From IMG/VR virus record IMGVR_UViG_2690315992_000010: 35,687 nucleotides of DNA, one strand, 5' to 3'. Below the pieces are notes generated by a model. The model worked only from the letters and a program-made list of their open reading frames with translations, ran no database searches and had not been told where the DNA came from. Of the stretch, positions 1,019 to 33,310 are shown piece by piece. Source of the DNA: a virus (lineage: Duplodnaviria > Heunggongvirae > Uroviricota > Caudoviricetes). Numbering within the stretch: position 1 is the stretch's first letter; every line of letters starts with the position of its first letter. A program made the translations under genes and the position numbers.

Positions 1019-1432
1019 ATGAAAAAGATTATCGCTGGTGTTGTTCTTGCTCTGGGTTTGGTTGGTGCTGCAAATGCTAATACCTATTATGTGTGTAATT
1101 CCTACTTCGAACATAAAGGAGATGATACACAATATCTTCGTGATGGCGACCGTTATTATCATGCACCGTCTGGAAAATATCGTGGTTTTATCGGTGTGAA
1201 AGTTCGCGTGAATGATGATAATAGTCAATTTGCTTTCAACGATCCGGTATATGATAAGACAATCAAAAGCCCTAAATTGAAAGAAGATAAGAACGAGAAA
1301 GAAGAATATTATGGTTCCGAAGATGGTAAATCCTACATCAAGTATCTGCATTCTGTTGATGGCGCGCCTATATTTGATGTTAAAAAAGGTGATACGTCTT
1401 ATTCCCTGATTAGCTGCCGTGAAATTCTTTAA
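1019..1432 (+). CDS. secreted/periplasmic protein of unknown function (Sec signal peptide)
   Basis: Strong RBS AGAGGAAA before ATG 1019. N-terminus MKKIIAGVVLALGLVGAANA is a canonical signal peptide with AxA cleavage motif. Two Cys (positions 26 and 134) could form a disulfide. Confidence 0.6.
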   Translation: MKKIIAGVVLALGLVGAANANTYYVCNSYFEHKGDDTQYLRDGDRYYHAPSGKYRGFIGVKVRVNDDNSQFAFNDPVYDKTIKSPKLKEDKNEKEEYYGSEDGKSYIKYLHSVDGAPIFDVKKGDTSYSLISCREIL

Positions 1433-1446: not shown

Positions 1447-1486
1447 GCCCCTATCGTTATAATACGCGGTAGGGGCGTTTTTGTTT
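1447..1486 (+). terminator. hairpin with T-tract between secreted-protein gene and recombinase gene
   Basis: GCCCCTA...TAGGGGC stem around a TTATAATA centre, followed by GTTTTTGTTT. Could be a terminator/attenuator or a recombinase-associated palindrome. Confidence 0.4.
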
Positions 1487-1495
1487 GGAAATGGT

Positions 1496-3175
1496 ATGAA
1501 AACTAAACTGTATTCGTATATTCGTTTCTCGTCTATGCGTCAGAATGATGGTTCGAGTTATGAACGACAAATCAGGATGGCTAGAGAGATTGCGGTAAAG
1601 TATGACCTTGAACTGGTAAATGATTATCAGGATCTGGGTGTATCTGCGTTTAAGGGTGCTAACTCCAAAACAGGGGCGCTATCTCGTTTCCTTGATGCAA
1701 TAGGTAGATCCGTTCCTGTTGGTAGCTGGCTATTCATCGAAAACTTGGACCGTTTATCCCGTGCCGATATTGTCAGTGCGCAGGAGTTATTCCTTTCAAT
1801 CATCCGTAGGGGGATAACCATTGTTACTGGCATGGATAACAAGATCTACTCGCTGGATACTGTTACCGCTAACCCGATGGACCTGATGTTCTCCATCCTT
1901 TTATTCATCCGTGGTAATGAGGAAAGCCAGACTAAGCGCAATCGTACTAACTCAAGCGCACTGATTAAGATTAAAGCTCATCAAGAAAATCCACAAAATC
2001 CGGCTGTTGCAATCGAGGAAATTGGAAAGAATATGTGGTGGACTGATACCACATCTGGTTATGTGCTTCCTCATCCGGTCTTCTTCCCTATTGTTCAGGA
2101 AGTTGTGGAATTACGCAGGAATGGACGGTCAACCGCCGAGATACTGGATCACCTTAACGCGACATACACACCACCACCAGCCGCAAGTCACAAGAGGCAT
2201 TCAAACTGGTCACGGGCAATGATTGAAAGGTTGTTCCATACCCGCGCTTTGATTGGTATCAAGGAAATCTCTGTAGATGGCGTTAAGTATGAGTTAAAGG
2301 ATTATTATCCTCGTGTGCTAGATGACGCTGAGTTTTATCACCTTAAGAAAAGCATTGGTGTTAGAGCATGTAACTTTGGAGACAAAGAAGAAGTTAAACC
2401 TATTCCCTTGCTTAGTGGTGTTGGTCTATTGAAATGTGAACATTGCGGTTCCGCTATGGTTAAGGTGAAAGGAACAAACAGACGGCCTAACCAATATCGT
2501 TATTCATGCGATGCAATGCGCTCTAGTCGTATTGAATGTGTGCATACAAACTGGAGTTTTCGCGGCGACCAATTAGAGAAAGCTGTATTGCAATTGCTGG
2601 CTGATAAAATCTGGATTGCTGAAGATAAGGCTAATCCGGTTCCGGCTTTGAAAGTACAGATTGATGAAATATCACGCAAGATTGATAACCTGATTACCCT
2701 TTCTGCTATGACAGGAGCAACGAAGGAGCTAGCCGATCAGATTACTACCCTCAATAGCGAGCGTGAAACACTCTACAATCAAATTAAGATGGCAGAAGAG
2801 GAAATGTATTCTGTTGACTCTCAAGGCTGGGAGAAGCTCGCAGAATTTGATTTAGAAGATGTTTACAACGAGGATCGCATTAAGGTCCGGTTTAAGATTA
2901 AGCAAGCTCTAAAACGGATCGGGTGTAGCAGGATTGACAAGTACAAAAACTTGTTTGTACTGGAATACATCGATGGCAAGACCCAGAGAGTTGTAATAGA
3001 AAATTCAAGAGGACCGAGGAAAGGCCGGATCTTCGTTGATTTGAAGACTATCAATGATAGGCAGATTCTGGAGAGTAACGGGCTTGTTCTGCATCCATGT
3101 TTAGACATGCTGACAGATAAGAACTGGAAACCAGAAGAAGAAATACCAGGTCCATTACAGGAATTTGGAATTTAA
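1496..3175 (+). CDS. large serine recombinase (putative serine integrase)
   Basis: N-terminal resolvase-type catalytic domain (YIRFSSMRQ...SYERQ, GVSAFKG, ENLDRLSRA), then recombinase domain, Cys-rich zinc-ribbon (CEHCGS...YRYSCD...CVH) and coiled-coil; 559 aa from ATG 1496. Track start 1481 is TTG; ATG 1496 is in frame. Confidence 0.8.
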   Translation: MKTKLYSYIRFSSMRQNDGSSYERQIRMAREIAVKYDLELVNDYQDLGVSAFKGANSKTGALSRFLDAIGRSVPVGSWLFIENLDRLSRADIVSAQELFLSIIRRGITIVTGMDNKIYSLDTVTANPMDLMFSILLFIRGNEESQTKRNRTNSSALIKIKAHQENPQNPAVAIEEIGKNMWWTDTTSGYVLPHPVFFPIVQEVVELRRNGRSTAEILDHLNATYTPPPAASHKRHSNWSRAMIERLFHTRALIGIKEISVDGVKYELKDYYPRVLDDAEFYHLKKSIGVRACNFGDKEEVKPIPLLSGVGLLKCEHCGSAMVKVKGTNRRPNQYRYSCDAMRSSRIECVHTNWSFRGDQLEKAVLQLLADKIWIAEDKANPVPALKVQIDEISRKIDNLITLSAMTGATKELADQITTLNSERETLYNQIKMAEEEMYSVDSQGWEKLAEFDLEDVYNEDRIKVRFKIKQALKRIGCSRIDKYKNLFVLEYIDGKTQRVVIENSRGPRKGRIFVDLKTINDRQILESNGLVLHPCLDMLTDKNWKPEEEIPGPLQEFGI

Positions 3176-3179
3176 GCTA

Positions 3180-3437
3180 ATGAAGATGATTAAGATTTTA
3201 GGTTTGATTTTATCTATGAATTCTTGCCTGGCATTGGCAACCGTTGACCAAGAAATGCGTAGACCGCTAACCTATAGAGAAGATGCTTTCATTGATGGAG
3301 CACATAAGACATTGAAATTGCTATGTCAAAAGACCACCAGTAATTACGATGAATACAGAAAATGTTATGAGGAATCACTAGACATTTATTCTGATGAGGT
3401 GAGAAAGATTTTCATAGAACAAGAAAATAAATCATAG
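3180..3437 (+). CDS. small secreted or lipoprotein-like protein
   Basis: N-terminus MKMIKILGLILSMNSCLALA is signal-peptide-like (possible atypical lipobox or ALA cleavage site). Track start 3165 is TTG; ATG 3180 is in frame. Confidence 0.4.
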   Translation: MKMIKILGLILSMNSCLALATVDQEMRRPLTYREDAFIDGAHKTLKLLCQKTTSNYDEYRKCYEESLDIYSDEVRKIFIEQENKS

Positions 3438-3475
3438 GCGGCCTAAATCGCCGTATAACGAACCAAACGCTTTAA

Positions 3476-3498
3476 GGGGTACATTTGTACCCCTTTTT
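3476..3498 (+). terminator. intrinsic terminator at convergence of plus-strand operon and minus-strand late operon
   Basis: GGGGTAC-attt-GTACCCC followed by TTTTT. Confidence 0.6.
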
Positions 3499-3519
3499 AA
3501 TTTAATTGCGTTAGAGAGT

Positions 3520-3717
3520 CTATAATTGGCTTAAATCAAGCTCTAGGTCTTCCGGTTCTTTCATTACTTCAACCAGAGACGGATCTACTTCGTCAAAAAC
3601 GACTTTATCGTCTGCGGTATATTTGTCTATAATGAAAAAATGGTCAGAAATATAGCTAACGTCGCCAGCATATTCTAACAAAAAAGCGCCCACCAGAGGC
3701 GCTTTTGTTTTATCCAT
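3520..3717 (-). CDS. hypothetical small acidic protein
   Basis: 65-aa ORF, last gene of minus-strand operon before terminator; no domain recognised. Confidence 0.4.
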   Translation of the reverse strand: MDKTKAPLVGAFLLEYAGDVSYISDHFFIIDKYTADDKVVFDEVDPSLVEVMKEPEDLELDLSQL

Positions 3718-4063
3718 TCCACCGTGATTTTTTTGATCTGGAATCGATATGCGTAAATGTTTTATATTTTCCTAAGCCGTATTGAGTAGGATATTTCCCA
3801 TCAAGATAAGCATGAACAATATCAGGTGAGACACCCTTGATAACAATGTCAGCCGCGCGGCCTCGAACGTGATAGCTATTGGCTGCCCCGCCTACATTCT
3901 TGTTATGAGTCGGGCAACGGTTGCCACTGTTAATAATCACTGGTTTACCGAAGTGCTCTCGTACATCCTCAAGAATTACCAGTAATTCAGCGTCGATTGT
4001 ATCATAATCACATTTTCCGCATTTACATTTAAATTCCTTGCGAGAAAAATGTTTGCTTAACAT
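3710..4063 (-). CDS. peptidase M15-family zinc peptidoglycan peptidase (putative endolysin)
   Basis: FSRKEF...CKCGKC, SGNRCPTHN, SYHVRGRAAD and TFTHID motifs match the small M15A/YcbK-like zinc peptidase architecture. Family assignment from memory of motifs, not a search. Confidence 0.6.
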   Translation of the reverse strand: MLSKHFSRKEFKCKCGKCDYDTIDAELLVILEDVREHFGKPVIINSGNRCPTHNKNVGGAANSYHVRGRAADIVIKGVSPDIVHAYLDGKYPTQYGLGKYKTFTHIDSRSKKSRWNG

Positions 4064-4072
4064 ATTACCCCC

Positions 4073-4420
4073 TTAGATCATTTCGAAGATATAACCAATA
4101 AAGCGCATACCCTTGATATAATAAGGAGCAGTGCCTACACACACCGCGCGTGCATCGCCCAGACAATTAAAGCTATAAGGATTAACTACATCGACTTCTT
4201 GCCCGACACGAAAACGATACTTAGGACGTTTAGCCAATGTAGCGACACAAAACACGGTCCCTTTTTCATGATCGCGGATACATTCTTTATATTGTTTATG
4301 TTTAACTCTCTTCGCCTCAAAATCATAGGTCATTGATTCTGGGCTAATGCCATTAATAAAAATACCGGAAAGCTGATCGACCGGATAAGTAGGAAATTCA
4401 GTGAAAATATTTTTAGCCAT
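4073..4420 (-). CDS. hypothetical protein
   Basis: 115-aa ORF, no TM segment or motif recognised. Confidence 0.45.
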   Translation of the reverse strand: MAKNIFTEFPTYPVDQLSGIFINGISPESMTYDFEAKRVKHKQYKECIRDHEKGTVFCVATLAKRPKYRFRVGQEVDVVNPYSFNCLGDARAVCVGTAPYYIKGMRFIGYIFEMI

Positions 4421-4458
4421 GTTATACCCCCATAAGATTCTATGAGGGTATTTATGGA

Positions 4459-5142
4459 TTAAACATATCTCATGCGCGATTTAATGTGCTTATTAATGTT
4501 CTTAAGCATCATTTCCTCGTTGCTTTCCCACGATCCTAGCGTCGAATAACGAGTAGAAATTTTATCCGACTTAACGGCAACAATTCGCTTACTCTGTTTC
4601 TGGATGCGTTTCTCTAAGCGACGTTTTGCCACCGCCGATCCATTCCTAGCGCGTTTGGTTCGGGATTTCTTAGGCTTGTACTTCTTCATGATAAAAGTCC
4701 CTTCCTTGTTCTCTACCTTGATGAAGTTGCCGTTTTCGAGGTTACGCATCATCCTCCCGCCTTTGATGGCCTTAATGTTCCCGTGGGCGTCTAAGACCTT
4801 ACCGTTGGCAATTGGCACTAGCTTATTGATTTTGCCACCATCGAAATAGTGTTTCAGATAGTCGTCCTGACTGCCGATCTTCTTGTCCTTATCCCTTGCG
4901 CCCTTAATGAAGATTTGGTGTCTCGTCCCTGATCGGTTCTTGTAGTTGGTATTACCTACAGCTTGCTGAGTCCAGCGAGTAGGTCTATCAACATTCTTGT
5001 TAATCTTCTTCTGGAGTGCTCTGGAAGCAAAGATCGCCCCTTCCCCTATCGCCCTTTCGAATGTATCAGTTGCCTTTTCAGACCATTGCCGCAACGCTTT
5101 CTTAGTCCTTAGAGCGTTTCGTTTATTGGTACTGATTGCCAT
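4459..5142 (-). CDS. hypothetical highly basic protein
   Basis: 227-aa ORF rich in Lys/Arg (KKYKPKKSRTKRARNG..KRRLEKRIQKQSKR); function unknown. Confidence 0.45.
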   Translation of the reverse strand: MAISTNKRNALRTKKALRQWSEKATDTFERAIGEGAIFASRALQKKINKNVDRPTRWTQQAVGNTNYKNRSGTRHQIFIKGARDKDKKIGSQDDYLKHYFDGGKINKLVPIANGKVLDAHGNIKAIKGGRMMRNLENGNFIKVENKEGTFIMKKYKPKKSRTKRARNGSAVAKRRLEKRIQKQSKRIVAVKSDKISTRYSTLGSWESNEEMMLKNINKHIKSRMRYV

Positions 5143-5143
5143 G

Positions 5144-5314
5144 TTAGCCCCCTAATAACGAAAAGACCCCCGCCAGTGTCCTTAGCAATTGTTCATCCAC
5201 GGTCATAGCCGGGAGTTCAAGCCCAAAGGACGTTAGCAGAGGTCTAATAGCTACGTTATAAGTGAGGGCGACAATCAAGAGATAACCAAAATATTTCTTA
5301 AGTTTATTCTTCAT
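5144..5314 (-). CDS. small membrane protein, 56 aa (one predicted TM helix)
   Basis: Internal ATG at 5314 preceded by GGGGTGA RBS; hydrophobic stretch YFGYLLIVALTYNVAI. Track ORF 5144-5386 starts further upstream and overlaps the preceding gene. Confidence 0.35.
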   Translation of the reverse strand: MKNKLKKYFGYLLIVALTYNVAIRPLLTSFGLELPAMTVDEQLLRTLAGVFSLLGG

Positions 5315-5333
5315 ATATTCACCCCTTTTATTA

Positions 5334-5612
5334 TTATTTTTGTCTGAGTAAATCGATAACTTGGTCAAATTTAGCGTCCATCGCAACCACTTTCTTCTCT
5401 ATACCGTGTAGTGTTTGTTCCATTTGGTAAACACGTTCAGCAATCTGAGTATGGTTATTCTGCATCGTCTCAAACTTCTGGTTTAACAATGCGTCGCTGG
5501 ATTCCAATTTAGATAACCTATTTTCTGTTGCTAATTGATTTCGGTGGAGTCTCCAAAGCCCACCGCAAATTAAGGCGATAACACCGATACCGCCATATAT
5601 AATTTCAGTCAT
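5334..5612 (-). CDS. membrane-anchored coiled-coil protein (N-terminal TM, spanin-like topology)
   Basis: N-terminal hydrophobic IIYGGIGVIALICGGLW followed by heptad-like helical region; sits immediately downstream of J-like gene. Confidence 0.45.
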   Translation of the reverse strand: MTEIIYGGIGVIALICGGLWRLHRNQLATENRLSKLESSDALLNQKFETMQNNHTQIAERVYQMEQTLHGIEKKVVAMDAKFDQVIDLLRQK

Positions 5613-5717
5613 TACGCCCCCGATATTTTTATATAGTTTAATGGCAAAATTATTTAGATAAAAATAATCCCGCCTAACTCAAAAGAATTAAGCGGGATTA
5701 ATTATTAGAATTAAATT

Positions 5718-8700
5718 TTAAGAAACAGAAATACCAGTAGCGGCTTTCTTAGTTACCATTACCGTTAGATCGCTGATATATGCACTTGGGGTATAGTTGT
5801 TAACGCCCTTACAGTAAACTTCAAAAGTCATTGTTACTGCCCCGTGTCCGGCTGGCATGTCAATAACTCCACTGTACATACAGCCAGAAGTTGCAGTGCG
5901 ATCATATAGAACACCACCATTTTTCTTAACGATTAGTCGGCAAGTATCCCAATGATCGCTACTTTCGCCACGACGAACAGACCCGTTATGATGAATCGCT
6001 GGAATCACTATTTGGCGATCGAATGGATGATCATCTTCGACCCTTACAGTGATTGCACCATCAGGCCAGTTTGGTTGGCGATGCGGGAAACTCCTACCAA
6101 CCACTTTCACGAAGTCACCACGCACCTGATTAGCATCAAGCATACCCAAAATGCGGCAACTTGAATTAATCGTTACGTTGTTCATTTCGCCGGAATCAGC
6201 CACCAAATGACCACGAATATTAGCGTATCTAAAATGGCAAGTGCCATCTTTGCCAATATACCATCCATCGTTACCATTCCAGTTATAAGACTGGATATAG
6301 TTACCAATTTTAGCATTATCGATAGAGCCATCAATAATATGACCTGTTCCGATCTGTGCGTGCTGGATGTGAGCACCGTTAATCTGGGCTGTGCCGATCT
6401 TAGCCGTAGTGATACTAGCATCACTAATCTGGGCGGTTCCGATCGCTGCATTACGAATCATTGCATTATCGAGATAAACCTTGTTATCTTCGATACCAAA
6501 CGGACAAACTTCTGATCCGTCTTGTGGAGCTACCGCGATTTTATCAGCCGTAAAGATGATTCTCGTCGGTTGTGCTGGATCGTTGGTTGCGCTCATATGA
6601 ATACCAGCCACGCGACCATCTGCATTAACTGCCAGATTATATTTGCTGTTAATGGTTCCCTTCAAAGCATCGATTTTTACATCTGCTTCCTGATTCACAC
6701 CAGCAATCTTACCATCCATTTCTACCCGAACTTGATCAATCTTGCTTGCGCTTGCTGCCTCACTGGTAGCAATTGCTTGTTTCAGGGTAGTAGCGGATGC
6801 GCTAACTTCTTTGGTGATATCGCCTTTCAGTTCAGCTTTAACCTGATCAATCTTAGTTGCGCTGGCTTGCTCACTGGTAGCAATCAGACTCTTGAGAGTA
6901 TCGGCTGAGGCTTGGACCGTCTGCCCTGTCTCGGTAGTAATCTGTTTATGCATTGCATCAATCTTAGCATCGGCATTAGCGCCAGCTTGAGCAATAGCAT
7001 CCGCGATGGTTTCATCTAAGCGATCTTGTAAACCGATCAGGTCTTCCAGTGCTTCTTTGTCCTGATCGTCCCAACTAATGGTAGATTTCATTTGCATGAA
7101 ATACGGTTCGGACCAAACAGCATCATCCATACCGAAAATATCGTAGTGAGCACCACGGATATAATAATCACCGTCAGCAATATCAAAGGAAGTATGGCTA
7201 ACACTATTCGTGCTTACTGCCCTTGCATCTGAGAAAGTGTTATCGGTTGCATACTGGATGATTGACCCTGCATAGTCATGTTCTACGTCATCCGCCCAGC
7301 TAACAAACGCAGTATTAAAGCCACCACGCGCACTAAAACCTTTCATTGGCTTATGCTGTGGGTTAATAGCCACTAAACGCGCTGGGGCGCTTACAGAGTT
7401 GTTATAACCCTTAGCGGATACTTCTACCGTCAATTCACGGGAAAGGCCGTTAAACTGGTTCATATCGAGCGTATAGGTCCATGATTCAGGATCGCGGGTA
7501 CGGTACTGAATAGACTTACCAGCCTTGTTAGTTACCTTGATAATGTAGGCTTCAAACAGGTCACTAAACTTGTTAGTTTCACCGTTGATAACCACATCTA
7601 AGGCTTGCTGATTGTCCCATTCAATAATCAGATCGTTGCCTTCGAAAGTACCAGGTGAACTACCCTGATTTTTGATGCGGATCGCTGGCGTAGGCAGTTC
7701 ATAGGTAACTTCTGGATTCTGGTTAACCAATTCCACCCATTCGGAACGAGCAATAATACCGAAAGCACAAACGCGGTAATCGTAGGAACGATCTTTAGCC
7801 AGTGCATTGATATTGAAAATTTGCTGTGAAGTCTGTCCCAGCTTAATCCAGTTAGGTGATCCACTCACTTTGTAATCAATCTGGAAACCGTAGCGGTTGA
7901 AATCTTCCGGTGCATCCCATGTCAAAGTTACGTTTTTACCGTGGATTGTCTCACCAGTTGCCTTAATTCTGAAATTAGTCGGTTTCTGTACTGTCATTGA
8001 ATCCGGTAAACCAGTAGGTCTATTGTCTGGATTCGCCGCATAGTTCAGGTCAGTATAAACCTGAGAATTATATTCTGTGGCGGTGATAGTCATCATCCCA
8101 GCAATACCAGAATCAATAGAGCGATCAATTGCAGTAATACGCCAAAGTGAATTATTCAGTTTTAATTCATCATAGGTTACGCTAATAACATCCCAAACTT
8201 CGGCAGTGAATGCGTCAGTAGTCATAAAGCTGATAACCTGAGTGATACGAGATTTATTTCGTTCTACACTCGCGAGTTTATCAATCTGGGCTTTAGACTT
8301 AACAAAACGATATTCAATATCTTTAGCGATAATTCGACCATCTTGACGAATAGTAGCATCGTTTTCAGCATCAGCCGGATAACGTAGCATTTGCTCGGAA
8401 TAGTCGATTGATGGTTCTTGATACATCGCGTTAATGGTATTGAAATAACCGTTAGTGCCACCTGTTTTCAGTGATACCTTACCCATCATGATATTGTCTT
8501 CATTGAAGGTATGCTTAACAATATCAGGAGCATCCAGTTTCAGGGTAATTCTTCCGAAGGATTCGAACATCACCCCGCCGAAAGTCTGCATGAGATTAGT
8601 TAAGTTCTCTTTAAAGCTGGCGTTCGGATCACATGCACCGTTTGAATGCAAATCCATCTGGCGTACTTGTTTACGTACTTTCAGGAATGAATCAACGTTG

Positions 8701-18800: not shown

Positions 18801-19229
18801 ATTTTTATTAGCGTTGATGGTATCCGACAATTCAGCTTTAACACCAGCAAGATCGGAAGCAGCTTTATTTTTATTGGCCTCGATTGTCGCGTCGGTTTCG
18901 CGTTTAATTACATCAACTTTATTGTTAATTTCTGCGTGATTTGCTGCGATGGTTGCATCAGTAGTTTGTTTAATTTCATCTACTTTAGCGTGAATATTGC
19001 GGTCGTTTGCTGCAATTGTGCTATCTAATTCTTTCTTGTTAGCATCAACTTTAGATTCTAGTGCCGCGTGAGTTTCAGGAGAAACAGAGATTTGAACTAC
19101 TTCATGATCTCGGTCTTTGGTAAAAATAACATGGTCTTTAAGGTTGATTGCTACCTCACCGACCTGTAATTGTTCCGGCGTTGGTTTTTTGCCAGAAACA
19201 TTAGTTCGTTTAAATTGGATTGATTGCAT
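15804..19229 (-). CDS. long (side) tail fibre with C-terminal intramolecular chaperone / S74 autoproteolytic domain
   Basis: 1141 aa; N-terminal ~33-aa repeat units (DxTIAAN...KVDxIKxxTD); C-terminus ...GRELGVIAQDVEKVMPEAVHV...TISVSSINALFVKAFQEL matches the chaperone domain of endosialidase/L-shaped-fibre type proteins. Confidence 0.8.
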   Translation of the reverse strand: MQSIQFKRTNVSGKKPTPEQLQVGEVAINLKDHVIFTKDRDHEVVQISVSPETHAALESKVDANKKELDSTIAANDRNIHAKVDEIKQTTDATIAANHAEINNKVDVIKRETDATIEANKNKAASDLAGVKAELSDTINANKNAAAVATQELDTRINKKVDDIKSRTDATIASNHKAINDKVDLIKAETDRTIAANQAYAENQLTDTYNNLTGVIAANKQEAADSVAALTRDVEAKNTAIHSKIDNNKVYTDSELARLESRIDAADGSADGKYIKKHVNTYTDGYLLSKTANYFDDPNARNLDYFGAFRMNDLAGHIAMILHVPHPSGVNHARGFEFTYGSNPHATVRTYGYDELGNLSYSHRMYHEGDKPTPAEIGAYSKAEIDRLFQKTLNFGIEGGWFKLGSLTLPQQHGRSAKIRLVGGNGYNVGMNGQANIIELVIRCGNNSPKGVVFNAYYSIWYHEQHFCAIPTDGDNYDLYAYYGAHTGFVLAEYQVSSGGVSLNLLDTPEYLGGEKPVADEIFDALNISSFNNVSNRGTLNFAGNHQGQYDIEHMNEQQTNSKKMLRRFRSSAPATIWHESVDDQNYRLATGYDDVNQQLLLSAATGLHVKRLTLDGGVGNAGIDIRRGPNESSHFNFMDYRTGQDVRNGWFGFGDLTTKDFIWWNDNGQNSINLIEDGELHITGGKGQKIVMNSEVALSENARLAVKGGNYGLMLRNDGSSFHILTTDLKDSFGSWNNRRPFSYDFADGGLYLGGTATARCLHLGIDGSTRLEDNLFFKAGSRQSMDYMELVHWGASNTGRNNVLSLRDSKGFLAEFERLWDNTTKNTFFGKMKINRGSDAIIMNAESGDSSVYLLGTCADNNNWYIGKGGGDNGLAFYSYATNAAINLTNAGDIALSPKGVEMVHVNNARLYVHGERWTASQPGDWGNQWRVEAPIFVDHGYVGQDCYYPIVKARSLITNQGYTTAVDFGMRRIPNNWGQAIIRVGSAENSPDNGHPQAVFEFHHDGFFYTPGNGSFNDVHIRSDERLKINKEELEEGALDKLNSLTVYSYDKVKSLSDDTVVGRELGVIAQDVEKVMPEAVHVCSDGDTENPGEIKTISVSSINALFVKAFQELTTKYDAMNEELKAVKAELAAIKSCK

Positions 19230-19302
19230 CTAATCACCTCACTATAAAACAGGAATAAGGGAGGCGTTAACCTCCCGCGTCATGTTTTATTTAGAGAAGC
19301 AA

Positions 19303-20136
19303 TCAGTATTCCCCGAAGTCGATCCGGTCATGGATAGAAACGGCTTCAATCTCGGCTGGTGTCGGTTTTTCTTCTGTGGAATACACTTTCACCCATCCCG
19401 AATTACCGTCTTTCTGGACTGTGCGAACTCGTAAACGTGGTGCGCCGGAAGCGGTGCAAGTTAATTGCCATCCACCATCTTCATTAGGTTGAGCGTGAAT
19501 TAGTGAAGTATCAGCACTAAATGGATTAGATGCGCTCGATCCCTGATAGGTCACAAAACGGTTTCCGGTTAATGCTTCGCTATCAATCGGACCAGTGAAT
19601 GGATTTACACCAGCACCCAGACCAAAATCACCCTGACGTAAGATCCGACCTTCGGTTGCAATACCACGATCCAGAATCCCGCCATCAGGTTCTAATTTAA
19701 ACTCGATTGTAGTAACTTTGTTATCGCCGGATTTTGTTTTATGTGACGAGACGAAAGCGTCAAAGATGACGTAGTAACCTGTGTTAGCAGCACTGTAACC
19801 AGAGTTCACAACATAGAACATACGAAAGCGTAAAGGAGTTTTATCATTCACCGCTTTCATCAACATGTCTTGATGTTCGTCATCCAGAACACGGTTTACT
19901 ACTAACGTAGTTGATTCAAGTTTACGATAACCAGAAAGTTTCCCCGTAGCGTCCTGGTCATACTCTTCTAACGTCTGTATCTCTGTAGATTCGGTTATCG
20001 TCGGGAATGCTGCGATGTTCTCGATAGGACTAAATGCAGGATCGAAAAAGTCCGGCTGGTTATCGACCATAGTAGAAACGGAGACTTCAACATGCGACCC
20101 CGTGAAAATGTCTAAGTTATCTTGTGTAATATTCAT
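19303..20136 (-). CDS. virion structural protein (neck/tail; possible tube-like fold with extra C-terminal domain)
   Basis: 277 aa; position between head-tail connector genes and fibre gene; moderate codon bias; shares KPTPAEI motif with the fibre protein. Function uncertain. Confidence 0.35.
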   Translation of the reverse strand: MNITQDNLDIFTGSHVEVSVSTMVDNQPDFFDPAFSPIENIAAFPTITESTEIQTLEEYDQDATGKLSGYRKLESTTLVVNRVLDDEHQDMLMKAVNDKTPLRFRMFYVVNSGYSAANTGYYVIFDAFVSSHKTKSGDNKVTTIEFKLEPDGGILDRGIATEGRILRQGDFGLGAGVNPFTGPIDSEALTGNRFVTYQGSSASNPFSADTSLIHAQPNEDGGWQLTCTASGAPRLRVRTVQKDGNSGWVKVYSTEEKPTPAEIEAVSIHDRIDFGEY

Positions 20137-25181: not shown

Positions 25182-27086
25182 TTAGAACGATGTTACCCAG
25201 CTACGGCCTCTATTTGGGCGTCTGGCGATGTTTTTACGTTGTGGTCGTGTGATTGGCTTATTTTCTTCGATTTGCTCGTCAGATTGCGATTTAGGAGCTT
25301 CTACGGATTCTTCTGGTTCACGGTTCAAACTATCTTTGATGGCTTCGAGTTTTTCCCATGACATTTTATTGAGTACATGGCGATAACTAGCCACCGCATA
25401 GGTTAGGCAGTCCAAGCCCTCGTTGCGTTGCTGACCAACTTTTACCCAACGTGTGGTATTACCCTGCCGTTTCAACTGTTCAGATAGCAATTGCTCGCAG
25501 TAGTCATCAGGAACGTCACCAATCTGGAAGACCGTATGAGGATCGCTGTCTCTCAAGTTCCGGTTAATCATTTCACGGATCATCGTCTTAAGGTTGTTTA
25601 CGCCCAGAATTTTAAGGGTAAAACCGCCCGTTCTTGTGTCTTTTACCGGAAGGATTGGAGCATCAACATTACTTGCGCCCTTAATGGCGCATAGATTTTG
25701 CCACCTAGTGCAAAAGCGGTAGATCACTTGCGTAGCTCGTCCGTTTGATGAGTCCACGAAAGCGGATAGCATCGGGATTCGTTGACCGGATCGGGTATAG
25801 AATTTTGCTTTCAGGAAGTTGTAAAGCTGGTCATATGCTGGTGATTCGTGGCGTTCGCAGTTCACATCATAGAATGATCGGTGATCAACTACGCATATCC
25901 CTTTACGAGAGATACCCAGCAAGGTAGATTCCAGACGGTCTTTTTGCTGGTCAACTCCACCTACCAGAGCCAAAACATCATCAGGAATATTATCTAAGCT
26001 AATGTCAGTTTTCAGCGTTTCCAGTTCGTCGGCTGTGCGGTCTTCGTTAAGATCATCGAAGGTTTCACCGAGCACCACATTATAGAACGTTGCCAGCGAC
26101 ATATTCGCGTAGCTATCAGCAAAGTCCACCACACACGCACGGATAGAACTAAACGGAGACATAAGGCGGTTAGCATGAAAACCGATTACTTCCGCATTTG
26201 GTTCGGTGGCGACCCATTCTCCCTGAGCAACAGCACGGAGGCGATCTGGTTCTGACCAATCAGTTTCACATGACGGGCAACGGTAAACGGCTGTGTCTGG
26301 ATTCGGCAGTGATTTACCATTGATTACATGCCAATCAAAGAATACTCTACTCCATTCCATTACGTGTTTGTGTCCGCAATGCTGGCAAACGACGTGGTAT
26401 TTTCTTTTATCCGAGAGTTCCCATTGTTGGTTTATCGCCCCATCCCGCGAAGTTGGAGTAGAAGCAATTACGATCCTTGCATCATCACCGAAAGTGGTTG
26501 CGCGTTGTTCCGCTAGCTGGATCGGGTTCCCTTCGTCTGACTCATCAGCCGCATCAACTTCATCAAGAATAATCAAAGGTAGTGTTTTACCGCGAAGATG
26601 TGATGGACTATTCAACGACATGAAATACATGAATGATCCGTTACGAAGCTGAATAATCGATGAGTTGTTAACGGCATTGCGATCTGACTTGTCGGTGATC
26701 ATCGCCTTTAATTCTGGGGTTGCCTCTAATACTGGCTTCACCTTACCCGCGATCCAGCTATTCAACTCGCGGACGTTTGCTTGCAAAACACCTATATTAG
26801 TGGGGTTGCTGGCGATCCTATGAAAGATAATACCGTTTAGCACAAGAGTTTTACCCAACTGCGCCGAGCACTTTAGCACAATTTTTCGCCTATCTTCGGT
26901 GATCGCGTCCATCATCCCACGTTGGAAAGGATGCAATTTAATTAGCGATCCGGCTTTAACACCATCGGTTGCAACTACATTAGCCTCTACCCATTCGCTA
27001 GGTTTCATGGCTTTAGGTGGGCGAATTGCAGCAGAGATATTTCTGAGAATCTTTTTTAATTTTGCCTTATTAGAAATCAGTTTCAT
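25182..27086 (-). CDS. terminase large subunit (GpA family)
   Basis: 634 aa; Walker A-like KCSAQLGKT, IASTPT motif, Cys-rich zinc-finger-like segment (CQHCGH...CPSC), size similar to lambda gpA; GAGGGTAA RBS before ATG 27086. Confidence 0.8.
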   Translation of the reverse strand: MKLISNKAKLKKILRNISAAIRPPKAMKPSEWVEANVVATDGVKAGSLIKLHPFQRGMMDAITEDRRKIVLKCSAQLGKTLVLNGIIFHRIASNPTNIGVLQANVRELNSWIAGKVKPVLEATPELKAMITDKSDRNAVNNSSIIQLRNGSFMYFMSLNSPSHLRGKTLPLIILDEVDAADESDEGNPIQLAEQRATTFGDDARIVIASTPTSRDGAINQQWELSDKRKYHVVCQHCGHKHVMEWSRVFFDWHVINGKSLPNPDTAVYRCPSCETDWSEPDRLRAVAQGEWVATEPNAEVIGFHANRLMSPFSSIRACVVDFADSYANMSLATFYNVVLGETFDDLNEDRTADELETLKTDISLDNIPDDVLALVGGVDQQKDRLESTLLGISRKGICVVDHRSFYDVNCERHESPAYDQLYNFLKAKFYTRSGQRIPMLSAFVDSSNGRATQVIYRFCTRWQNLCAIKGASNVDAPILPVKDTRTGGFTLKILGVNNLKTMIREMINRNLRDSDPHTVFQIGDVPDDYCEQLLSEQLKRQGNTTRWVKVGQQRNEGLDCLTYAVASYRHVLNKMSWEKLEAIKDSLNREPEESVEAPKSQSDEQIEENKPITRPQRKNIARRPNRGRSWVTSF

Positions 27087-27129
27087 GTAATTACCCTCAT
27101 TACGAAATATGAAGGTATTTATTAAATTG

Positions 27130-27158
27130 TTGATATTTTGATAAATACGGGTATTAAG
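27130..27158 (+). promoter_or_regulatory. candidate sigma70 promoter for rightward gene 27175 (divergent from terminase)
   Basis: TTGATA - 16 bp - TATTAA upstream of AAGGGGGGG RBS. Confidence 0.3.
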
Positions 27159-27174
27159 ATTTAAGGGGGGGTGT

Positions 27175-27780
27175 ATGCTAATTAATCAGCAACAAAGAGA
27201 TGCATTAGAATTAGCCTTTTCTTGTTGTACCGATCATGAATATCGTTTGCCAGTTAAGCACCATCACAAGAAGACTGATTACACAACATCTGGCTTTAGT
27301 CGTGAGGAAGCTAAACAGATTTTAATCGAGTTGTATCGCGATCATGGGTATACCGATATTCATAACTTCTTTAAGAAGCATCGTACATCACAGACAGAGT
27401 TTAATAGAGTTCGTGAATGGTTTGATTTTGACATTAAGCGATTCTATCGAGTAGATGACGGTCCTATCTATCGGTTGCAGTGGACACCGATTAGGGAAGT
27501 GCTTAAACAGAAGAGATTGAATCATGCCATTACACGCTATCGTAATGTGGCTTTTAAGAAAGGCTATGGTGATTCAAGGGAATTGTTTGTAGAACTCGCT
27601 AACGTGCGATATAGCCACTATTACAGGAATCCTAAAGAGTTCTTCGAAGTGCTGCGCAAGGTTGATATTAGTCGGGGTACATATTATTCACGGTTGAAGA
27701 AGTACGGGATTAAGGCAGAGTTCTTTATGTCGGTTGACGATGGAGAACTTTTTCCGATAAAATGTAAGTCCTCTAAATAA
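27175..27780 (+). CDS. helix-turn-helix protein of unknown function (paralogue family member 1)
   Basis: 201 aa; contains FSREEAKQILIELYRD and C-terminal ISRGTYYSRLKKYGI segments that recur in the two small proteins at 27810 and 31471. Confidence 0.5.
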   Translation: MLINQQQRDALELAFSCCTDHEYRLPVKHHHKKTDYTTSGFSREEAKQILIELYRDHGYTDIHNFFKKHRTSQTEFNRVREWFDFDIKRFYRVDDGPIYRLQWTPIREVLKQKRLNHAITRYRNVAFKKGYGDSRELFVELANVRYSHYYRNPKEFFEVLRKVDISRGTYYSRLKKYGIKAEFFMSVDDGELFPIKCKSSK

Positions 27781-27809
27781 AGGTGAACATTCACTTTAAT
27801 TTGGAGAAA

Positions 27810-28043
27810 ATGACTATGACTACTAAAGCTACTCGCGGTCGCCCTGCCCGTTTTAACGCTGAACAGATGGCTGATATTGCCTACGCTTATTATACAGCGG
27901 ATCGTGGTAAGGAAGCGAAAGAACAGATTCTTAGTGAACATGGGATCTCAATCGCCCAATTCTATAAGAATATGAAGAAGTTGGACATTAAATTCTATGT
28001 TCAGATCGGTGATGGTCAGATCGTAGAAGCAACAGGTTTTTGA
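27810..28043 (+). CDS. small helix-turn-helix DNA-binding protein (paralogue 2)
   Basis: 77 aa from ATG 27810 (GGAG RBS); RGRPARFNAEQMADIAYAYY...ISIAQFYKNMKKLDI. Track start 27783 is GTG. Confidence 0.5.
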   Translation: MTMTTKATRGRPARFNAEQMADIAYAYYTADRGKEAKEQILSEHGISIAQFYKNMKKLDIKFYVQIGDGQIVEATGF

Positions 28044-28058
28044 GTTTTGATTCTCTTT

Positions 28059-28082
28059 GCCACTCTTCGGAGTGGCTTTTTT
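28059..28082 (+). terminator. intrinsic terminator
   Basis: GCCACTC-ttcg-GAGTGGC followed by TTTTTTG. Confidence 0.7.
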
Positions 28083-28203
28083 GTATGTAAAACAATCGGC
28101 GCAAAACTGCGCTCATTTCTAAGTTGAGTCCAAATCTGGACTGATCTATAGATGCATCCAAATCTGGAGGGATGCGCTTAAAGTTCAGCGCATCTACAGA
28201 TAC

Positions 28204-28228
28204 AAAAAAGCCCCTGAAATTCAGGGGC
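28204..28228 (-). terminator. intrinsic (bidirectional) terminator after Rha operon
   Basis: AAAAAA-GCCCCTGAA-at-TTCAGGGGC-AAAAATT; its right half is the TTCAGGGGCAAAAAT motif that forms the iteron array at 30.7-30.9 kb. Confidence 0.65.
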
Positions 28229-28236
28229 AAAAATTA

Positions 28237-29070: not shown

Positions 29071-29159
29071 AGTAAAAATTCCCCTTAAACGGTTTAGTGA
29101 TTTGGTCCTCCTAGTTCCGGCATCTCAACCGGAACAATTTTATTTATGATAGAAATTTA

Positions 29160-29492: not shown

Positions 29493-29548
29493 GTTACATC
29501 CTCTTTACAAATCTAGGTCAAATAGGTTCAAAGTTGTCAAGCGCGATA

Positions 29549-29577
29549 ATCATAAAAAAGTCAGAAATTTTTGTCAA
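29549..29577 (-). promoter_or_regulatory. candidate sigma70 promoter (leftward) overlapped by palindromic operator
   Basis: Minus-strand -35 TTGACA (29577-29572), 17-bp spacer, -10 TATGAT (29554-29549). Palindrome TTGTCAA-tacccc-TTGACAA at 29571-29590 overlaps the -35. Confidence 0.4.
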
Positions 29578-32710: not shown

Positions 32711-32714
32711 AAAA

Positions 32715-32981: not shown

Positions 32982-33155
32982 TTATTTAGTATCCTTTTTA
33001 CAGCAACTAAAAAGAATAAACAAAAAGAAGCATACCCAGCCGTAAGGCGTACCGATTAGAAATTTGAAAAACACCACCAGCGATATAAAAATCAATTTAA
33101 TGCCAGCGACGATAGTCAAAAACAGCAGAGTAGCAAAGTAGACAAAAAGATCCAT
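32982..33155 (-). CDS. small hydrophobic membrane protein, ~57 aa (two predicted TM segments)
   Basis: ATG ~33155 with AGAGGA RBS; MDLFVYFATLLFLTIVAGIKLIFISLVVFFKFLIGTPYGWVCFFLFILF...; not in ORF track. Confidence 0.25.
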   Translation of the reverse strand: MDLFVYFATLLFLTIVAGIKLIFISLVVFFKFLIGTPYGWVCFFLFILFSCCKKDTK

Positions 33156-33208: not shown

Positions 33209-33310
33209 TTAATTATACTTGAAAGCGTTACACAAAGTAGAAATGCCAATATGTGCCAGTGAATATACGATAGTTAATCCTACAGCCAGATAAATCAAAA
33301 ATTCAACCAT
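33209..33310 (-). CDS. small hydrophobic peptide, ~33 aa
   Basis: ATG ~33310 with GAGGA RBS; MVEFLIYLAVGLTIVYSLAHIGISTLCNAFKYN; not in ORF track. Confidence 0.2.
   Translation of the reverse strand: MVEFLIYLAVGLTIVYSLAHIGISTLCNAFKYN

What the first reader, a model, noticed from the sequence alone, without database searches (positions are those of the whole stretch)
3520..5612. Post-J cassette: M15 peptidase plus membrane proteins without a clear holin/spanin set
Downstream of the J-like gene lie a TM/coiled-coil protein, a 56-aa TM protein, a basic 227-aa protein, a 115-aa protein, an M15-type peptidase and a small acidic protein. This may be the lysis cassette in an unusual location and composition, or the peptidase and membrane proteins may serve another role such as superinfection exclusion.
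Basis: inference. Interest (0 to 1): 0.4.

Follow-up and report, generated by a model that had tools for sequence, protein, structure and literature searches.

The report
Tail-completion genes plus endolysin after J
The genes after the tail-tip gene of this E. coli prophage are a mixed end-of-operon block, not a pure lysis cassette: two unclassified membrane proteins, a tail-completion protein, an unknown partner and the phage's only cell-wall-cutting enzyme, with no outer-membrane (spanin) gene anywhere in the phage.

Summary
The window is a complete ~35.6 kb E. coli prophage inserted in hicB.

**What is confirmed.** All six ORFs exist at the stated coordinates on the minus strand. Five are conserved genes.

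**Acidic ORF (3520-3717).** Its first codons are an intrinsic terminator. It is frameshifted, stopped or deleted in close relatives, so it is probably not a gene.

**M15 peptidase (3710-4063).**
- It is the only muralytic gene in the prophage.
- It is 60-64% identical to the endolysins of SP6-like podophages.
- It has no signal sequence.
- Relatives carry a T4-type lysozyme in the same slot, or nothing there.

**Basic 227-aa protein.** This is a tail-completion protein of the lambda gpZ / HK97 gp10 / 80alpha gp51 type, with a basic insertion. It is not a lysis protein.

**Conserved block.** The order p92, p56, tail-completion protein, p115 holds in about 22 divergent enterobacterial prophages. 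In many of them the block lies inside the tail operon.

**Membrane proteins p92 and p56.** They match no known holin family, but they are the only conserved candidates for the holin that a cytoplasmic endolysin needs.

**Spanins.** No spanin (lipoprotein) gene exists anywhere in the prophage.

**Verdict.** This is an ordinary endolysin in a composite tail-completion and lysis module. The holin is unidentified and the lysis system is spanin-less. Interest is modest.

The parts
5718..9464 (-). J-like tail-tip / central fibre gene (1248 aa). It is the upstream neighbour that defines the block.
   Evidence: PHROG tail-fibre families. RefSeq calls it 'phage tail tip protein'. Homologues carry PF09327 Phage_Tail_Tip.
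5665..5700 (-). Intrinsic terminator between J and p92: 16-bp stem followed by a U-run.
   Evidence: Terminator scan. RNA fold gives -24.2 kcal/mol, z = -7.7. It is conserved, with compensatory changes, in the 57-75% identity relatives L026 and L028. Weaker or no hairpins are found in more distant relatives.
5334..5612 (-). p92: N-terminal transmembrane segment plus a ~70-aa coiled coil. No known family. It follows the J-like gene wherever that gene lies on the fetched DNA. It is a candidate holin or lysis-timing protein; function not shown.
   Evidence: Hydrophobicity. Only coiled-coil noise in Pfam, PHROG and NCBIfam. Profile hits in all 15 distant viral loci. Flanking charges favour N-out/C-in in most members.
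5144..5314 (-). p56: small hydrophobic membrane protein. Basic N-terminus, invariant Asn and Pro in the hydrophobic core, acidic amphipathic tail. It always lies directly upstream of the tail-completion gene. It is a candidate holin; function not shown.
   Evidence: Alignments. Weak repeated hits to phrog_2024, unknown function. Its stop codon is 1 nt from the p227 start. Present in 15 of 15 distant loci.
4459..5142 (-). p227: tail-completion protein of the lambda gpZ / HK97 gp10 / SPP1 gp16.1 / 80alpha gp51 type. It carries a lineage-specific basic insertion at about residues 104-197.
4073..4420 (-). p115: soluble protein of unknown family that always follows the tail-completion gene. Probably a tail or neck partner; not shown.
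   Evidence: Homologues occur only in Enterobacterales prophages and have no Pfam domain. Conserved after the tail-completion gene in all loci examined. No similarity to lambda gpU or to any PDB sequence.
3710..4063 (-). Soluble Zn-peptidase of Pfam family Peptidase_M15_3. It is the prophage's only endolysin candidate.
   Evidence: PF08291, E = 8.8e-28. phrog_894 endolysin, E = 1.7e-45. 60-64% identity to endolysins of SP6-like podophages. The H-x6-D zinc motif aligns with 1LBU. No hydrophobic N-terminus.
3682..3706 (-). Terminator hairpin directly after the peptidase stop codon. It ends the operon.
   Evidence: Sequence read. Scan. Fold gives -14.7 kcal/mol followed by UUUUUUGUU. This piece is retained in relatives that have deleted the rest of the acidic ORF.
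3520..3717 (-). 65-aa acidic ORF. Probably non-coding or a decaying remnant, and not part of the module.
   Evidence: It overlaps the terminator. It is frameshifted, stopped or deleted in close relatives and absent in distant ones. PGAP does annotate it.
32982..33155 (-). 57-aa ORF with 2-3 hydrophobic segments and a basic C-terminus (KKDTK). It has a good ribosome-binding site and lies downstream of the TerS terminator. It is an alternative holin candidate at a variable locus.
   Evidence: Intact in 15 of 23 close relatives. The other 8 lack it; the four of those inspected carry an unrelated 94-aa multi-TM protein instead. No equivalent in the distant relative L082. Not annotated by PGAP.
33209..33310 (-). 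Possible 33-aa single-TM peptide, taken from the internal ATG of the 59-aa ORF. The upstream part of that ORF is the TerS terminator.
   Evidence: Sequence read. Fold of the TerS terminator. Conservation pattern.

Best explanation
The segment 3710-5612 (minus strand) is the distal end of the prophage's late morphogenesis operon. It is a composite module, not a dedicated lysis cassette.

A conserved four-gene block follows the tail-tip gene J:
1. p92, a membrane-anchored coiled-coil protein.
2. p56, a small hydrophobic membrane protein.
3. A gpZ/HK97-gp10-type tail-completion protein. By analogy with 80alpha gp51 it would sit inside the neck end of the tail, contacting the tape-measure protein and the DNA end. 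Here it carries an extra basic insertion.
4. p115, an unknown partner.

The phage's single endolysin is appended at the 3' end in a slot that is exchangeable between relatives. It is a signal-less Zn peptidase of the M15_3 family. Intrinsic terminators bracket the unit.

Proposed sequence of events late in infection:
- Transcripts that read through the J terminator make these proteins at lower levels than the tail proteins.
- The tail-completion protein, and probably p115, finish the tails.
- The peptidase accumulates in the cytoplasm and cannot reach the wall by itself.
- p56 and/or p92 act as the holin (inferred).
- The outer membrane is breached without a spanin (inferred).

Shown: gene content, conservation, the identity of the endolysin family and of the tail-completion protein, and the absence of spanins. 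Inferred: the holin role of p56/p92, the role of p115, and read-through expression.
For: - **Whole prophage in the window.** It is flanked by the two halves of hicB.
- **One muralytic gene only.** All ORFs of 70 aa or more, and the small membrane ORFs, were scanned.
- **Peptidase identity.** PF08291 at 8.8e-28 and phrog_894 endolysin at 1.7e-45. It is 60-64% identical to SP6-like podophage endolysins, has the zinc motif and has no hydrophobic N-terminus.
- **Exchangeable slot.** The same position holds a GH24 T4-type lysozyme in DCP80, Serratia, L079, L082 and L085. This non-orthologous replacement marks the position as the endolysin slot.
- **Conserved block.** The order p92, p56, tail-completion protein, p115 holds in about 22 loci down to 27-34% identity.
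- **Tight packing.** Spacers of 1-38 nt with Shine-Dalgarno sequences.
- **Terminators at both ends**.
- **No lipobox ORF anywhere**.
- **Only conserved membrane proteins.** p92 and p56 are the only membrane proteins conserved across the lineage. The other small membrane ORFs are variable.
Against: - Nothing shows that p92 or p56 forms holes. Neither matches a holin family; the best matches are noise-level coiled-coil hits.
- p56 lacks the charged C-terminal tail typical of holins.
- In many relatives the block lies between J and the chaperone/tape-measure genes with no endolysin next to it. In Klebsiella and Kluyvera prophages no endolysin follows p115. The block is therefore linked to tail genes at least as strongly as to lysis.
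- Two tail-related genes between a holin and its endolysin would be unusual.
- A strong terminator before p92, with no recognisable promoter after it, leaves expression unproven.
Confidence: 0.6

Rival explanations
1. The holin is not in this block. p92 and p56 serve the tail or DNA entry: p92 with the tail-tip protein J, and p56 with the tail-completion protein, for example as assembly factors or proteins delivered to the host membrane. The real holin would be one of the small multi-TM ORFs downstream of TerS (32982-33155, perhaps with 33209-33310).
For: - p92 follows J and p56 precedes the tail-completion gene even where the block is split. In L082 and L085, p92 stays behind J while p56, the tail-completion gene, p115 and the lysozyme form a converging operon.
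- In many relatives the block is embedded between J and the G/T/tape-measure genes.
- The 57-aa ORF has holin-like features: 2-3 hydrophobic segments, a basic C-terminal tail and a good ribosome-binding site.
- Its locus shows non-orthologous replacement by a 94-aa 3-4-TM protein, as holin loci often do.
- SPP1 gp16.1, a tail-completion protein, is needed to route DNA into the cytoplasm (abstract of PMC11099176).
Against: - The TerS-downstream ORFs lie behind a terminator and are not annotated by PGAP.
- They have no family match.
- They have no counterpart downstream of TerS in the distant relative L082, which still needs a holin for its soluble lysozyme.
- Membrane proteins are not known components of siphophage tail assembly (my own knowledge).
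Confidence: 0.25
2. p92 and p56 are superinfection-exclusion or immunity proteins (morons) placed next to the receptor-binding gene, as cor, llp or HK97 gp15 are. They would be expressed from the prophage.
For: - Position directly after the tail-tip gene.
- A strong terminator separates them from J.
- They are inner-membrane proteins.
Against: - They are conserved in every relative examined and diverge along with the structural genes, unlike morons.
- No sigma-70-like promoter was found between the terminator and p92.
- p56 stops 1 nt before the structural gene p227 starts.
- G+C content does not differ from that of the neighbours.
Confidence: 0.07
3. The M15 peptidase is not the lysis enzyme. 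It would be a virion-associated wall-piercing enzyme or a host-cell-wall remodelling moron, in a prophage that is lysis-defective or relies on something else.
For: - RefSeq names it only 'D-Ala-D-Ala carboxypeptidase family metallohydrolase'.
- It sits beside tail genes.
- No known holin or spanin accompanies it.
- I recognised no replication genes or CI-type repressor in the prophage, so it may be defective.
Against: - It is 60-64% identical to the sole endolysin of lytic SP6-like podophages.
- At 117 aa it is a bare catalytic domain with no signal peptide and no fusion to a tail protein.
- T4-type lysozymes replace it in the same slot.
- No other muralytic gene exists in the prophage.
Confidence: 0.05

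Closest known systems
Endolysins of SP6-like podophages (Autographiviridae, Molineuxvirinae: Proteus PM85/PM93, Pectobacterium PP1, Klebsiella K1-ULIP33, UAB_Phi78); Pfam Peptidase_M15_3
   Same: 117-aa single-domain Zn peptidase, full-length alignment at 60-64% identity, no signal sequence.
   Different: In those phages a tiny gene annotated 'putative holin' directly follows the endolysin, near the terminase gene. Here the endolysin ends a siphophage tail operon, is preceded by tail-completion genes, and has a terminator directly downstream.
Tail-completion proteins: lambda gpZ (PF06763), HK97 gp10, SPP1 gp16.1, 80alpha gp51 (PDB 9mu2)
   Same: Predicted fold: a long bent N-terminal helix, a beta-hairpin, a short helix and a C-terminal helix. 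Profile links to gpZ. Like gpZ it has an extra domain inserted at the apex.
   Different: The gene lies after J, not between the head-closure and tail-tube genes. The inserted domain is highly basic and lineage-specific. The window protein gives no direct Pfam match. A small membrane-protein gene always precedes it, ending 1 nt before its start.
Lysis region of temperate Gram-positive siphophages and PBSX-like elements: tail fibre, XhlA-type membrane/coiled-coil protein, holin, endolysin, then integrase on the opposite strand (my own knowledge)
   Same: The order tail tip, membrane coiled-coil protein, small membrane protein, endolysin, then a large serine recombinase nearby on the other strand.
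   Different: No sequence relationship was found. XhlA has its TM segment at the C-terminus, whereas p92 has it at the N-terminus. Two tail-related genes are intercalated here. The host is Gram-negative, so outer-membrane disruption is also needed.
Spanin-less lysis systems such as coliphage phiKT gp27-gp28-gp29, with the disruptin gp28 (bioRxiv 10.1101/515445)
   Same: No two-component or unimolecular spanin can be found in the complete phage genome. That paper puts about 15% of phages in this class.
   Different: phiKT gp28 is a 56-aa cationic amphipathic peptide. p56 is also 56 aa, but it is hydrophobic, and its net charge is not conserved (0 to about +4 across relatives). No disruptin-like gene is evident here.
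Phage P2 late region, where the lysis genes Y, K, lysA, lysB and lysC lie next to the tail-completion genes R and S (my own knowledge)
   Same: Lysis genes embedded in a morphogenesis operon, beside tail-completion genes.
   Different: P2 has a recognisable holin and spanins (LysB/LysC). The proteins are unrelated.

Membership tests
Peptidase_M15_3 phage endolysin | Pfam PF08291 domain above the gathering score | tested here: met
   97 bits against a cut-off of 23.2, E = 8.8e-28, covering the full profile. phrog_894 endolysin, E = 1.7e-45.
Peptidase_M15_3 phage endolysin | Zinc-binding H-x6-D motif plus a distal His | tested here: met
   SYHVRGRAAD aligns with SRHMYGHAAD of the Streptomyces albus Zn D-Ala-D-Ala carboxypeptidase 1LBU. 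The distal His in 'FTHID' was read from the sequence; its role rests on my own knowledge of the family.
Peptidase_M15_3 phage endolysin | Muralytic activity, and a requirement for this gene in lysis | not testable with these tools
   Needs a zymogram or turbidity assay and a deletion mutant.
Tail-completion protein (lambda gpZ / HK97 gp10 / SPP1 gp16.1 / 80alpha gp51) | Characteristic fold: long bent N-terminal helix, beta-hairpin, short helix, C-terminal helix | tested here: met
Tail-completion protein (lambda gpZ / HK97 gp10 / SPP1 gp16.1 / 80alpha gp51) | Sequence-profile membership (PF06763 Minor_tail_Z or PF04883 HK97-gp10_like) | tested here: inconclusive
   The window protein gives no Pfam hit. 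The link is indirect: 13 of 80 remote homologues from the profile search hit PF06763, best E = 2.4e-7. hhalign of the family against gpZ gives E = 2e-4, probability 45%. p227-family members hit phrog_1924 at 1e-6 to 4e-4, and gpZ hits the same family at 2e-4.
Tail-completion protein (lambda gpZ / HK97 gp10 / SPP1 gp16.1 / 80alpha gp51) | Gene position between the head-closure and tail-terminator/tube genes | tested here: not met
   The gene lies after J. In relatives it lies after J and before the chaperone genes, or before TerS as in RcCronus gp44. Position is a habit of the family, not a requirement.
Tail-completion protein (lambda gpZ / HK97 gp10 / SPP1 gp16.1 / 80alpha gp51) | Present in the virion tail and needed for infectivity | not testable with these tools
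   Needs virion mass spectrometry and a deletion mutant.
Holin (any class) | Small protein with at least one TM segment and a charged hydrophilic C-terminal domain, encoded near the endolysin | tested here: inconclusive
   p92 has one TM segment plus a charged C-terminal coiled coil. p56 has a TM core but no charged C-terminus; its N-terminus is basic instead. Both lie in the endolysin's operon in this window but not in all relatives.
Holin (any class) | Membership of a described holin family | tested here: not met
   No Pfam, NCBIfam or PHROG holin match for the window proteins. One relative of p92 hits phrog_1296 holin at 1e-4, among many coiled-coil hits.
Holin (any class) | Lethal, energy-poison-triggerable hole formation that releases endolysin | not testable with these tools
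   Needs inducible expression and complementation of a lambda S-null.
Two-component spanin (Rz/Rz1 type) | o-spanin: a small outer-membrane lipoprotein with a lipobox, embedded in, overlapping or adjacent to the i-spanin gene | tested here: not met
   Strict and relaxed lipobox scans of all ORFs of 25 aa or more, from every start codon in six frames, found no credible candidate in the whole window. p56 contains no Cys.
Two-component spanin (Rz/Rz1 type) | i-spanin: N-in TM anchor with a periplasmic coiled coil | tested here: inconclusive
   p92 has a TM segment and a coiled coil, with weak hits to Rz-like PHROGs at E = 0.001-0.03. The family's charge bias is an acidic or neutral N-flank in 14 of 15 members and a net-positive C-flank in 11 of 15. 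That predicts N-out/C-in, which puts the coiled coil in the cytoplasm.
Unimolecular spanin (T1 gp11 type) | N-terminal lipoprotein signal plus a C-terminal TM segment in one protein | tested here: not met
   No lipobox ORF.
Disruptin (phiKT gp28 type) | Small (<80 aa) strongly cationic amphipathic helical peptide in the lysis cassette | tested here: not met
   p56 is hydrophobic rather than amphipathic, and its net charge is not conserved across relatives. Criteria taken from 10.1101/515445.
Moron / superinfection-exclusion gene | Own promoter and terminator, patchy presence among related phages, expression from the prophage | tested here: not met
   p92 and p56 are present in all relatives examined. 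No promoter-like site was found upstream on their strand. p56 stops 1 nt before p227 starts. Expression in the lysogen was not testable.

The most novel reading that the evidence does not exclude
p92 and p56 are a new, unclassified holin system, either holin plus partner or holin plus antiholin. It would be conserved across a lineage of enterobacterial serine-integrase siphophages and would release a cytoplasmic endolysin and achieve lysis without any spanin. Its genes would be interleaved with the tail-completion gene, so that tail completion and lysis are expressed from one attenuated transcript. A more exotic variant is not excluded: p56 could be a partner of the tail-completion protein that is carried in the tail and inserted into the host inner membrane during DNA entry.
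Probability: 0.35. Interest if true: 0.45.

Novelty: new variant of a known kind. Interest (0 to 1): 0.3.

Why it matters
**Annotation.** The result corrects how this prophage group should be annotated. The group occurs in about 1% of complete E. coli genomes (56 of 5426) and in Salmonella, Klebsiella, Serratia, Kluyvera, Providencia and Enterobacter.
- The 'hypothetical' basic protein is a tail-completion protein.
- The annotated acidic ORF is probably spurious.
- The 'D-Ala-D-Ala carboxypeptidase family' gene is the endolysin.

**Testable question.** The lineage has a soluble endolysin, no spanin and no recognisable holin. That leaves only two conserved membrane-protein candidates. It is a compact system for finding a new holin type, and for asking how a spanin-less coliphage breaches the outer membrane.

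**Endolysin slot.** The swap between M15 and GH24 enzymes is a clean example of non-orthologous replacement.

None of this overturns current understanding, so the interest is modest.

Tried and rejected
**Searches that gave nothing useful**
- Megablast of 3400-9500 against GenBank phages: no match.
- tblastn against phages of p227, p92, p115, a p56 homologue and a p92 homologue: nothing usable, apart from the weak DCP80 hit of p115 that led to a distant relative.
- Profile searches of the p227 and p115 families against PDB sequences: chance hits only.
- Rfam and tRNA scans of the window: nothing.
- Literature search for a hicB-integrated serine-recombinase prophage: nothing relevant.

**Runs that failed or were unavailable**
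- The first AF2 run of p227, with 7 sequences, was unusable at pLDDT 45. The second run with 27 sequences worked.
- The structure-prediction cap left no job for p115.
- The afdb50 fold library was unavailable.

**Leads that went nowhere**
- Enterobacter phage Arya shares only head genes. It is a myophage with a canonical lysis cassette, so it is uninformative here.

**Ideas rejected**
- p115 as a lambda gpU-type tail terminator, suggested by the Z-U gene order. hhalign gives probability 0.1%. This is unsupported rather than disproved, because tail terminators are very diverse.
- p92 as an i-spanin. There is no lipoprotein partner and the charge bias is opposite.
- p56 as a disruptin. It is hydrophobic and its charge is not conserved.
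- The basic insertion of p227 as an outer-membrane disruptor. It is absent from most relatives.
- The 90-aa ORF at 3165-3437 as an o-spanin. Its lipobox is poor (MNSC), it lies on the opposite strand behind the integrase, and it looks like a secreted helical protein.


Full report
**What the window is.** The segment 3400-5720 is 100% identical to a stretch of E. coli O55:H7 DEC5A and of FDAARGOS_946. Related copies occur in 56 of 5426 complete E. coli genomes. In DEC5A the element lies between two fragments of hicB. One fragment lacks its N-terminus and the other its C-terminus, and ordinary chromosomal genes flank both. The window therefore holds the whole ~35.6 kb prophage. It appears to have integrated into hicB through the large serine recombinase at 1481-3175. 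So the question of a second lysis cassette elsewhere can be answered inside the window.

**Gene inventory.** The minus strand carries a lambda-like late region:
- TerS (33409-33966), separated by about 6 kb of mixed-orientation genes from TerL (25182-27086).
- A W-position head-tail joining gene, the portal gene, and a fused protease/capsid-type major head gene.
- An FII-like gene, two unknown genes, and a 1141-aa fibre gene.
- The tube gene (V-like), G- and T-like chaperone genes, and the tape-measure gene.
- Distal tail protein, hub, an HNH/NUMOD3 homing endonuclease, and DUF6950.
- The J-like tip gene (5718-9464).

The finding's genes follow J.

**Checking the observation.** All six ORFs exist as described.
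- The gene spacing is tight: p92 to p56 19 nt, p56 to p227 1 nt, p227 to p115 38 nt, p115 to the peptidase 9 nt. Shine-Dalgarno sequences precede the starts with room for one.
- A 16-bp terminator hairpin (-24.2 kcal/mol, z = -7.7) with a U-run lies between J and p92. A second terminator follows the peptidase stop codon directly.
- The acidic ORF starts inside that second terminator.
- In prophages otherwise 93-98% identical, the acidic ORF is frameshifted or stopped (L019, L020, L009, L022). In others it is deleted except for the two hairpins (L002, L003, L005, L006, L008, L012, L021). More distant relatives lack it.
- I conclude the acidic ORF is not a functional gene, although PGAP annotates it.

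**The peptidase.** The 117-aa protein is a complete Peptidase_M15_3 domain (E = 8.8e-28) and a member of phrog_894 'endolysin'.
- Its closest phage relatives, at 60-64% identity over the full length, are the endolysins of lytic SP6-like podophages of Proteus, Pectobacterium, Klebsiella, Citrobacter and Salmonella. In those phages a tiny gene annotated 'putative holin' follows it.
- The H-x6-D zinc motif aligns with the Streptomyces albus Zn carboxypeptidase 1LBU.
- It has no hydrophobic N-terminus. It should therefore accumulate in the cytoplasm and need a hole-forming holin.
- No other protein in the prophage has a muralytic domain.

**Relatives and the endolysin slot.** The order p92, p56, p227, p115, M15 is kept in an E. 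coli prophage whose p227 homologue is 57% identical and in a Salmonella prophage at 75%.
- A distant relative is the first 26 kb of GenBank record PQ671644, 'phage DCP80'. That record otherwise looks T4-like and is probably chimeric.
- DCP80 has J, then a 153-aa TM/coiled-coil protein, an endonuclease VII, a 57-aa hydrophobic protein, a p227 homologue (32% identity) and a p115 homologue (31%). A GH24 T4-type lysozyme follows, and then TerS.
- A GH24 lysozyme directly follows p115 in Serratia and in viral contigs L079, L082 and L085.
- Klebsiella and Kluyvera prophages have no endolysin at that position.
- The 3' position is thus an exchangeable endolysin slot, while the four upstream genes form the stable unit.

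**The basic 227-aa protein.** Direct Pfam and PDB-sequence searches were empty.
- A two-step homologue search gave 27 family members. A profile search of 1.84 billion representatives gave 225 hits at E <= 1e-3.
- Of 80 of those hits scanned, 13 match Pfam Minor_tail_Z (lambda gpZ), best E = 2.4e-7.
- With the 27-sequence alignment, AlphaFold gives a model that is confident in its core: residues 10-100 and 200-224 at about 70-90, mean 63.
- The model shows a long bent N-terminal helix, a beta-hairpin, a short helix and a C-terminal helix.
- The best BFVD matches are HK97-gp10 proteins, at weak E-values.
- The paper on that structure describes gp51 in the same terms. It equates gp51 with lambda gpZ, SPP1 gp16.1 and HK97 gp10, and notes that the lambda tail-completion protein has an extra beta domain at the apex (PMC11661146).
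- Three of the four p227-family members scanned (the window protein and two distant relatives; the DCP80 homologue gave no hit) match phrog_1924 'minor tail protein'. Rhodobacter phage RcCronus gp44 belongs to that family, and lambda gpZ itself hits it.
- hhalign of the family against gpZ aligns the N-terminal 72 residues in register (E = 2e-4).
- I conclude that p227 is a tail-completion protein.
- Its basic stretch, at about residues 104-197, is an insertion missing from the ~180-aa relatives. It could contact the DNA end, as gp51 does, but that is inference.

**p115.** It always follows the tail-completion gene. Homologues occur only in Enterobacterales prophages and have no domain assignment. 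It shows no similarity to lambda gpU or to any PDB sequence. Its role is unknown. A tail or neck partner of the tail-completion protein is the simplest guess.

**Where the block sits in other genomes.** Mapping the window's structural proteins onto 19 distant loci shows three patterns.
- In L081, L087, L088, L090-L093 and Kluyvera L034 the order is V, DUF6950, J, p92, (endonuclease VII), p56, tail-completion gene, p115, G, T, tape measure; the shorter contig L089 shows the same order as far as the G-like gene. There the block lies inside the tail operon with no endolysin beside it.
- In L082 and L085, p92 stays behind J on one strand. p56, the tail-completion gene, p115 and the lysozyme form a converging operon on the other strand.
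- So p92 follows J wherever J lies on the fetched DNA, p56 precedes the tail-completion gene in every locus, and the endolysin comes and goes.

This weakens the idea of a dedicated lysis cassette. It does not exclude a lysis role for the membrane proteins: phage P2 also embeds its lysis genes next to tail-completion genes (my own knowledge).

**The two membrane proteins.**
- p92 has one N-terminal hydrophobic segment and a charged coiled coil. Across 15 family members the N-flank is acidic or neutral in 14 and the C-flank is net positive in 11. That predicts N-out/C-in, the opposite of Rz-type i-spanins.
- p56 has a basic N-terminus, a hydrophobic core with invariant Asn and Pro, and a short acidic amphipathic tail.
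- Neither matches any holin, spanin or other named family. The hits are weak and typical of coiled coils, or go to PHROGs of unknown function.
- They are the only membrane proteins conserved across the lineage. Both the M15 enzymes and the T4-type lysozymes found here lack export signals. By elimination, one or both are the best holin candidates.

**Other membrane ORFs.** Two small hydrophobic ORFs lie just after a terminator downstream of TerS (33209-33310 and 32982-33155).
- The 57-aa ORF has a holin-like layout.
- The locus is variable. The 57-aa ORF is intact in 15 of 23 close relatives. The other 8 lack it, and the four of those I inspected carry an unrelated 94-aa protein with 3-4 TM segments instead.
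- The distant relative L082 has nothing comparable after TerS.
- PGAP does not annotate these ORFs.
- They remain a real alternative for the holin.

**Spanins.** I scanned every ORF of 25 aa or more, from every start codon in six frames, for a lipobox preceded by a hydrophobic segment. I used both strict and relaxed rules. No credible lipoprotein appeared. There is therefore no o-spanin and no unimolecular spanin. The prophage belongs to the spanin-less class, which the phiKT study puts at about 15% of phages (10.1101/515445). No disruptin-like cationic peptide is evident.

**Conclusion.** The composition is explained differently:
- One of the 'odd' proteins is a displaced tail-completion protein.
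- One ORF is spurious.
- The endolysin is a swappable add-on at the end of the tail operon.

What stays open is which membrane protein is the holin and how the outer membrane is breached.

Noticed in passing
window 1-35687 (ends); 35337-35687: The window is a complete prophage inserted inside the antitoxin gene hicB. The ORF at 35337-35687 is the N-terminal part of HicB. In strain DEC5A the C-terminal fragment lies just left of the element and hicA just right of it. Integration therefore splits the antitoxin gene of a toxin-antitoxin pair and leaves hicA intact.
   Followed up: partly
window 9930-10703 (-); L029 22959-23426; L030 6365-6847: Homing-type endonucleases sit inside the tail region. 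In the window an HNH/NUMOD3 gene lies between the hub and DUF6950 genes. In many relatives an endonuclease VII gene lies between p92 and p56.
   Followed up: no
window 27087-33408: TerS (33409-33966) is separated from TerL (25182-27086) by about 6.3 kb of mixed-orientation genes, including an anti-repressor-like protein, several unknowns and an ORF-poor stretch at 30071-31456. I recognised no replication gene and no CI-type repressor anywhere in the prophage, so it may be defective or may use unrecognised functions.
   Followed up: partly
window 34325-35104 (+); 3165-3437 (+); 1019-1432 (+): Three secreted proteins are encoded on the plus strand near the prophage ends. One is an LprI/DUF1311 'lysozyme inhibitor' family protein (PF07007, E = 1.2e-5). 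By eye, the 90-aa protein behind the integrase has a similar Cys-spaced helical motif. They are probably morons. An inhibitor-type protein in a phage whose relatives use lysozymes is curious.
   Followed up: no
L081, L087-L093, L034 versus window 5718-15715; L031 and L086: The tail gene order is rearranged among relatives. The block DUF6950, J, p92, p56, tail-completion gene, p115 lies between the tube gene and the G/T/tape-measure genes in many contigs. In L031 and L086 the distal-tail and hub genes are inverted next to the serine recombinase gene.
   Followed up: partly
L029 (PQ671644.1, 1-34000): GenBank record 'Escherichia phage DCP80' (141 kb, classified as a T4-like Gaprivervirus) begins with about 26 kb of a siphophage related to this prophage and then continues with T4-type genes (motA, ndd). 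The record looks like a chimeric assembly.
   Followed up: no
window 9321-9464 (-), residues 1-48 of the J-like protein: The J-like tail-tip protein starts with a ~48-residue Ala/Gly-rich hydrophobic region predicted as membrane-like. The same feature is present in the DCP80 homologue.
   Followed up: no
window 27783-28043 (+), 31456-31650 (+), C-terminus of 27175-27780 (+): By eye, two small basic proteins and the C-terminus of a third share a motif (R-P-x-K/R-F ... G-I/S ... F/Y-Y-K/R-x-M/L-K-K). They appear to be paralogous small DNA-binding-type proteins in the putative early region.
   Followed up: no
window 15804-20136 (-): A 1141-aa tail-fibre gene lies between two tube-like genes. The 277-aa protein (19303-20136) and the 156-aa protein (15245-15715) both hit phrog_158 'major tail protein'.
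   Followed up: no
window 32982-33388 (-); L057 3150-3434: Just after the TerS terminator is a variable locus encoding small hydrophobic proteins: 33 aa plus 57 aa in the window, and an unrelated 94-aa 3-4-TM protein in other close relatives. None is annotated by PGAP. They could be holins, toxins or exclusion proteins.
   Followed up: partly
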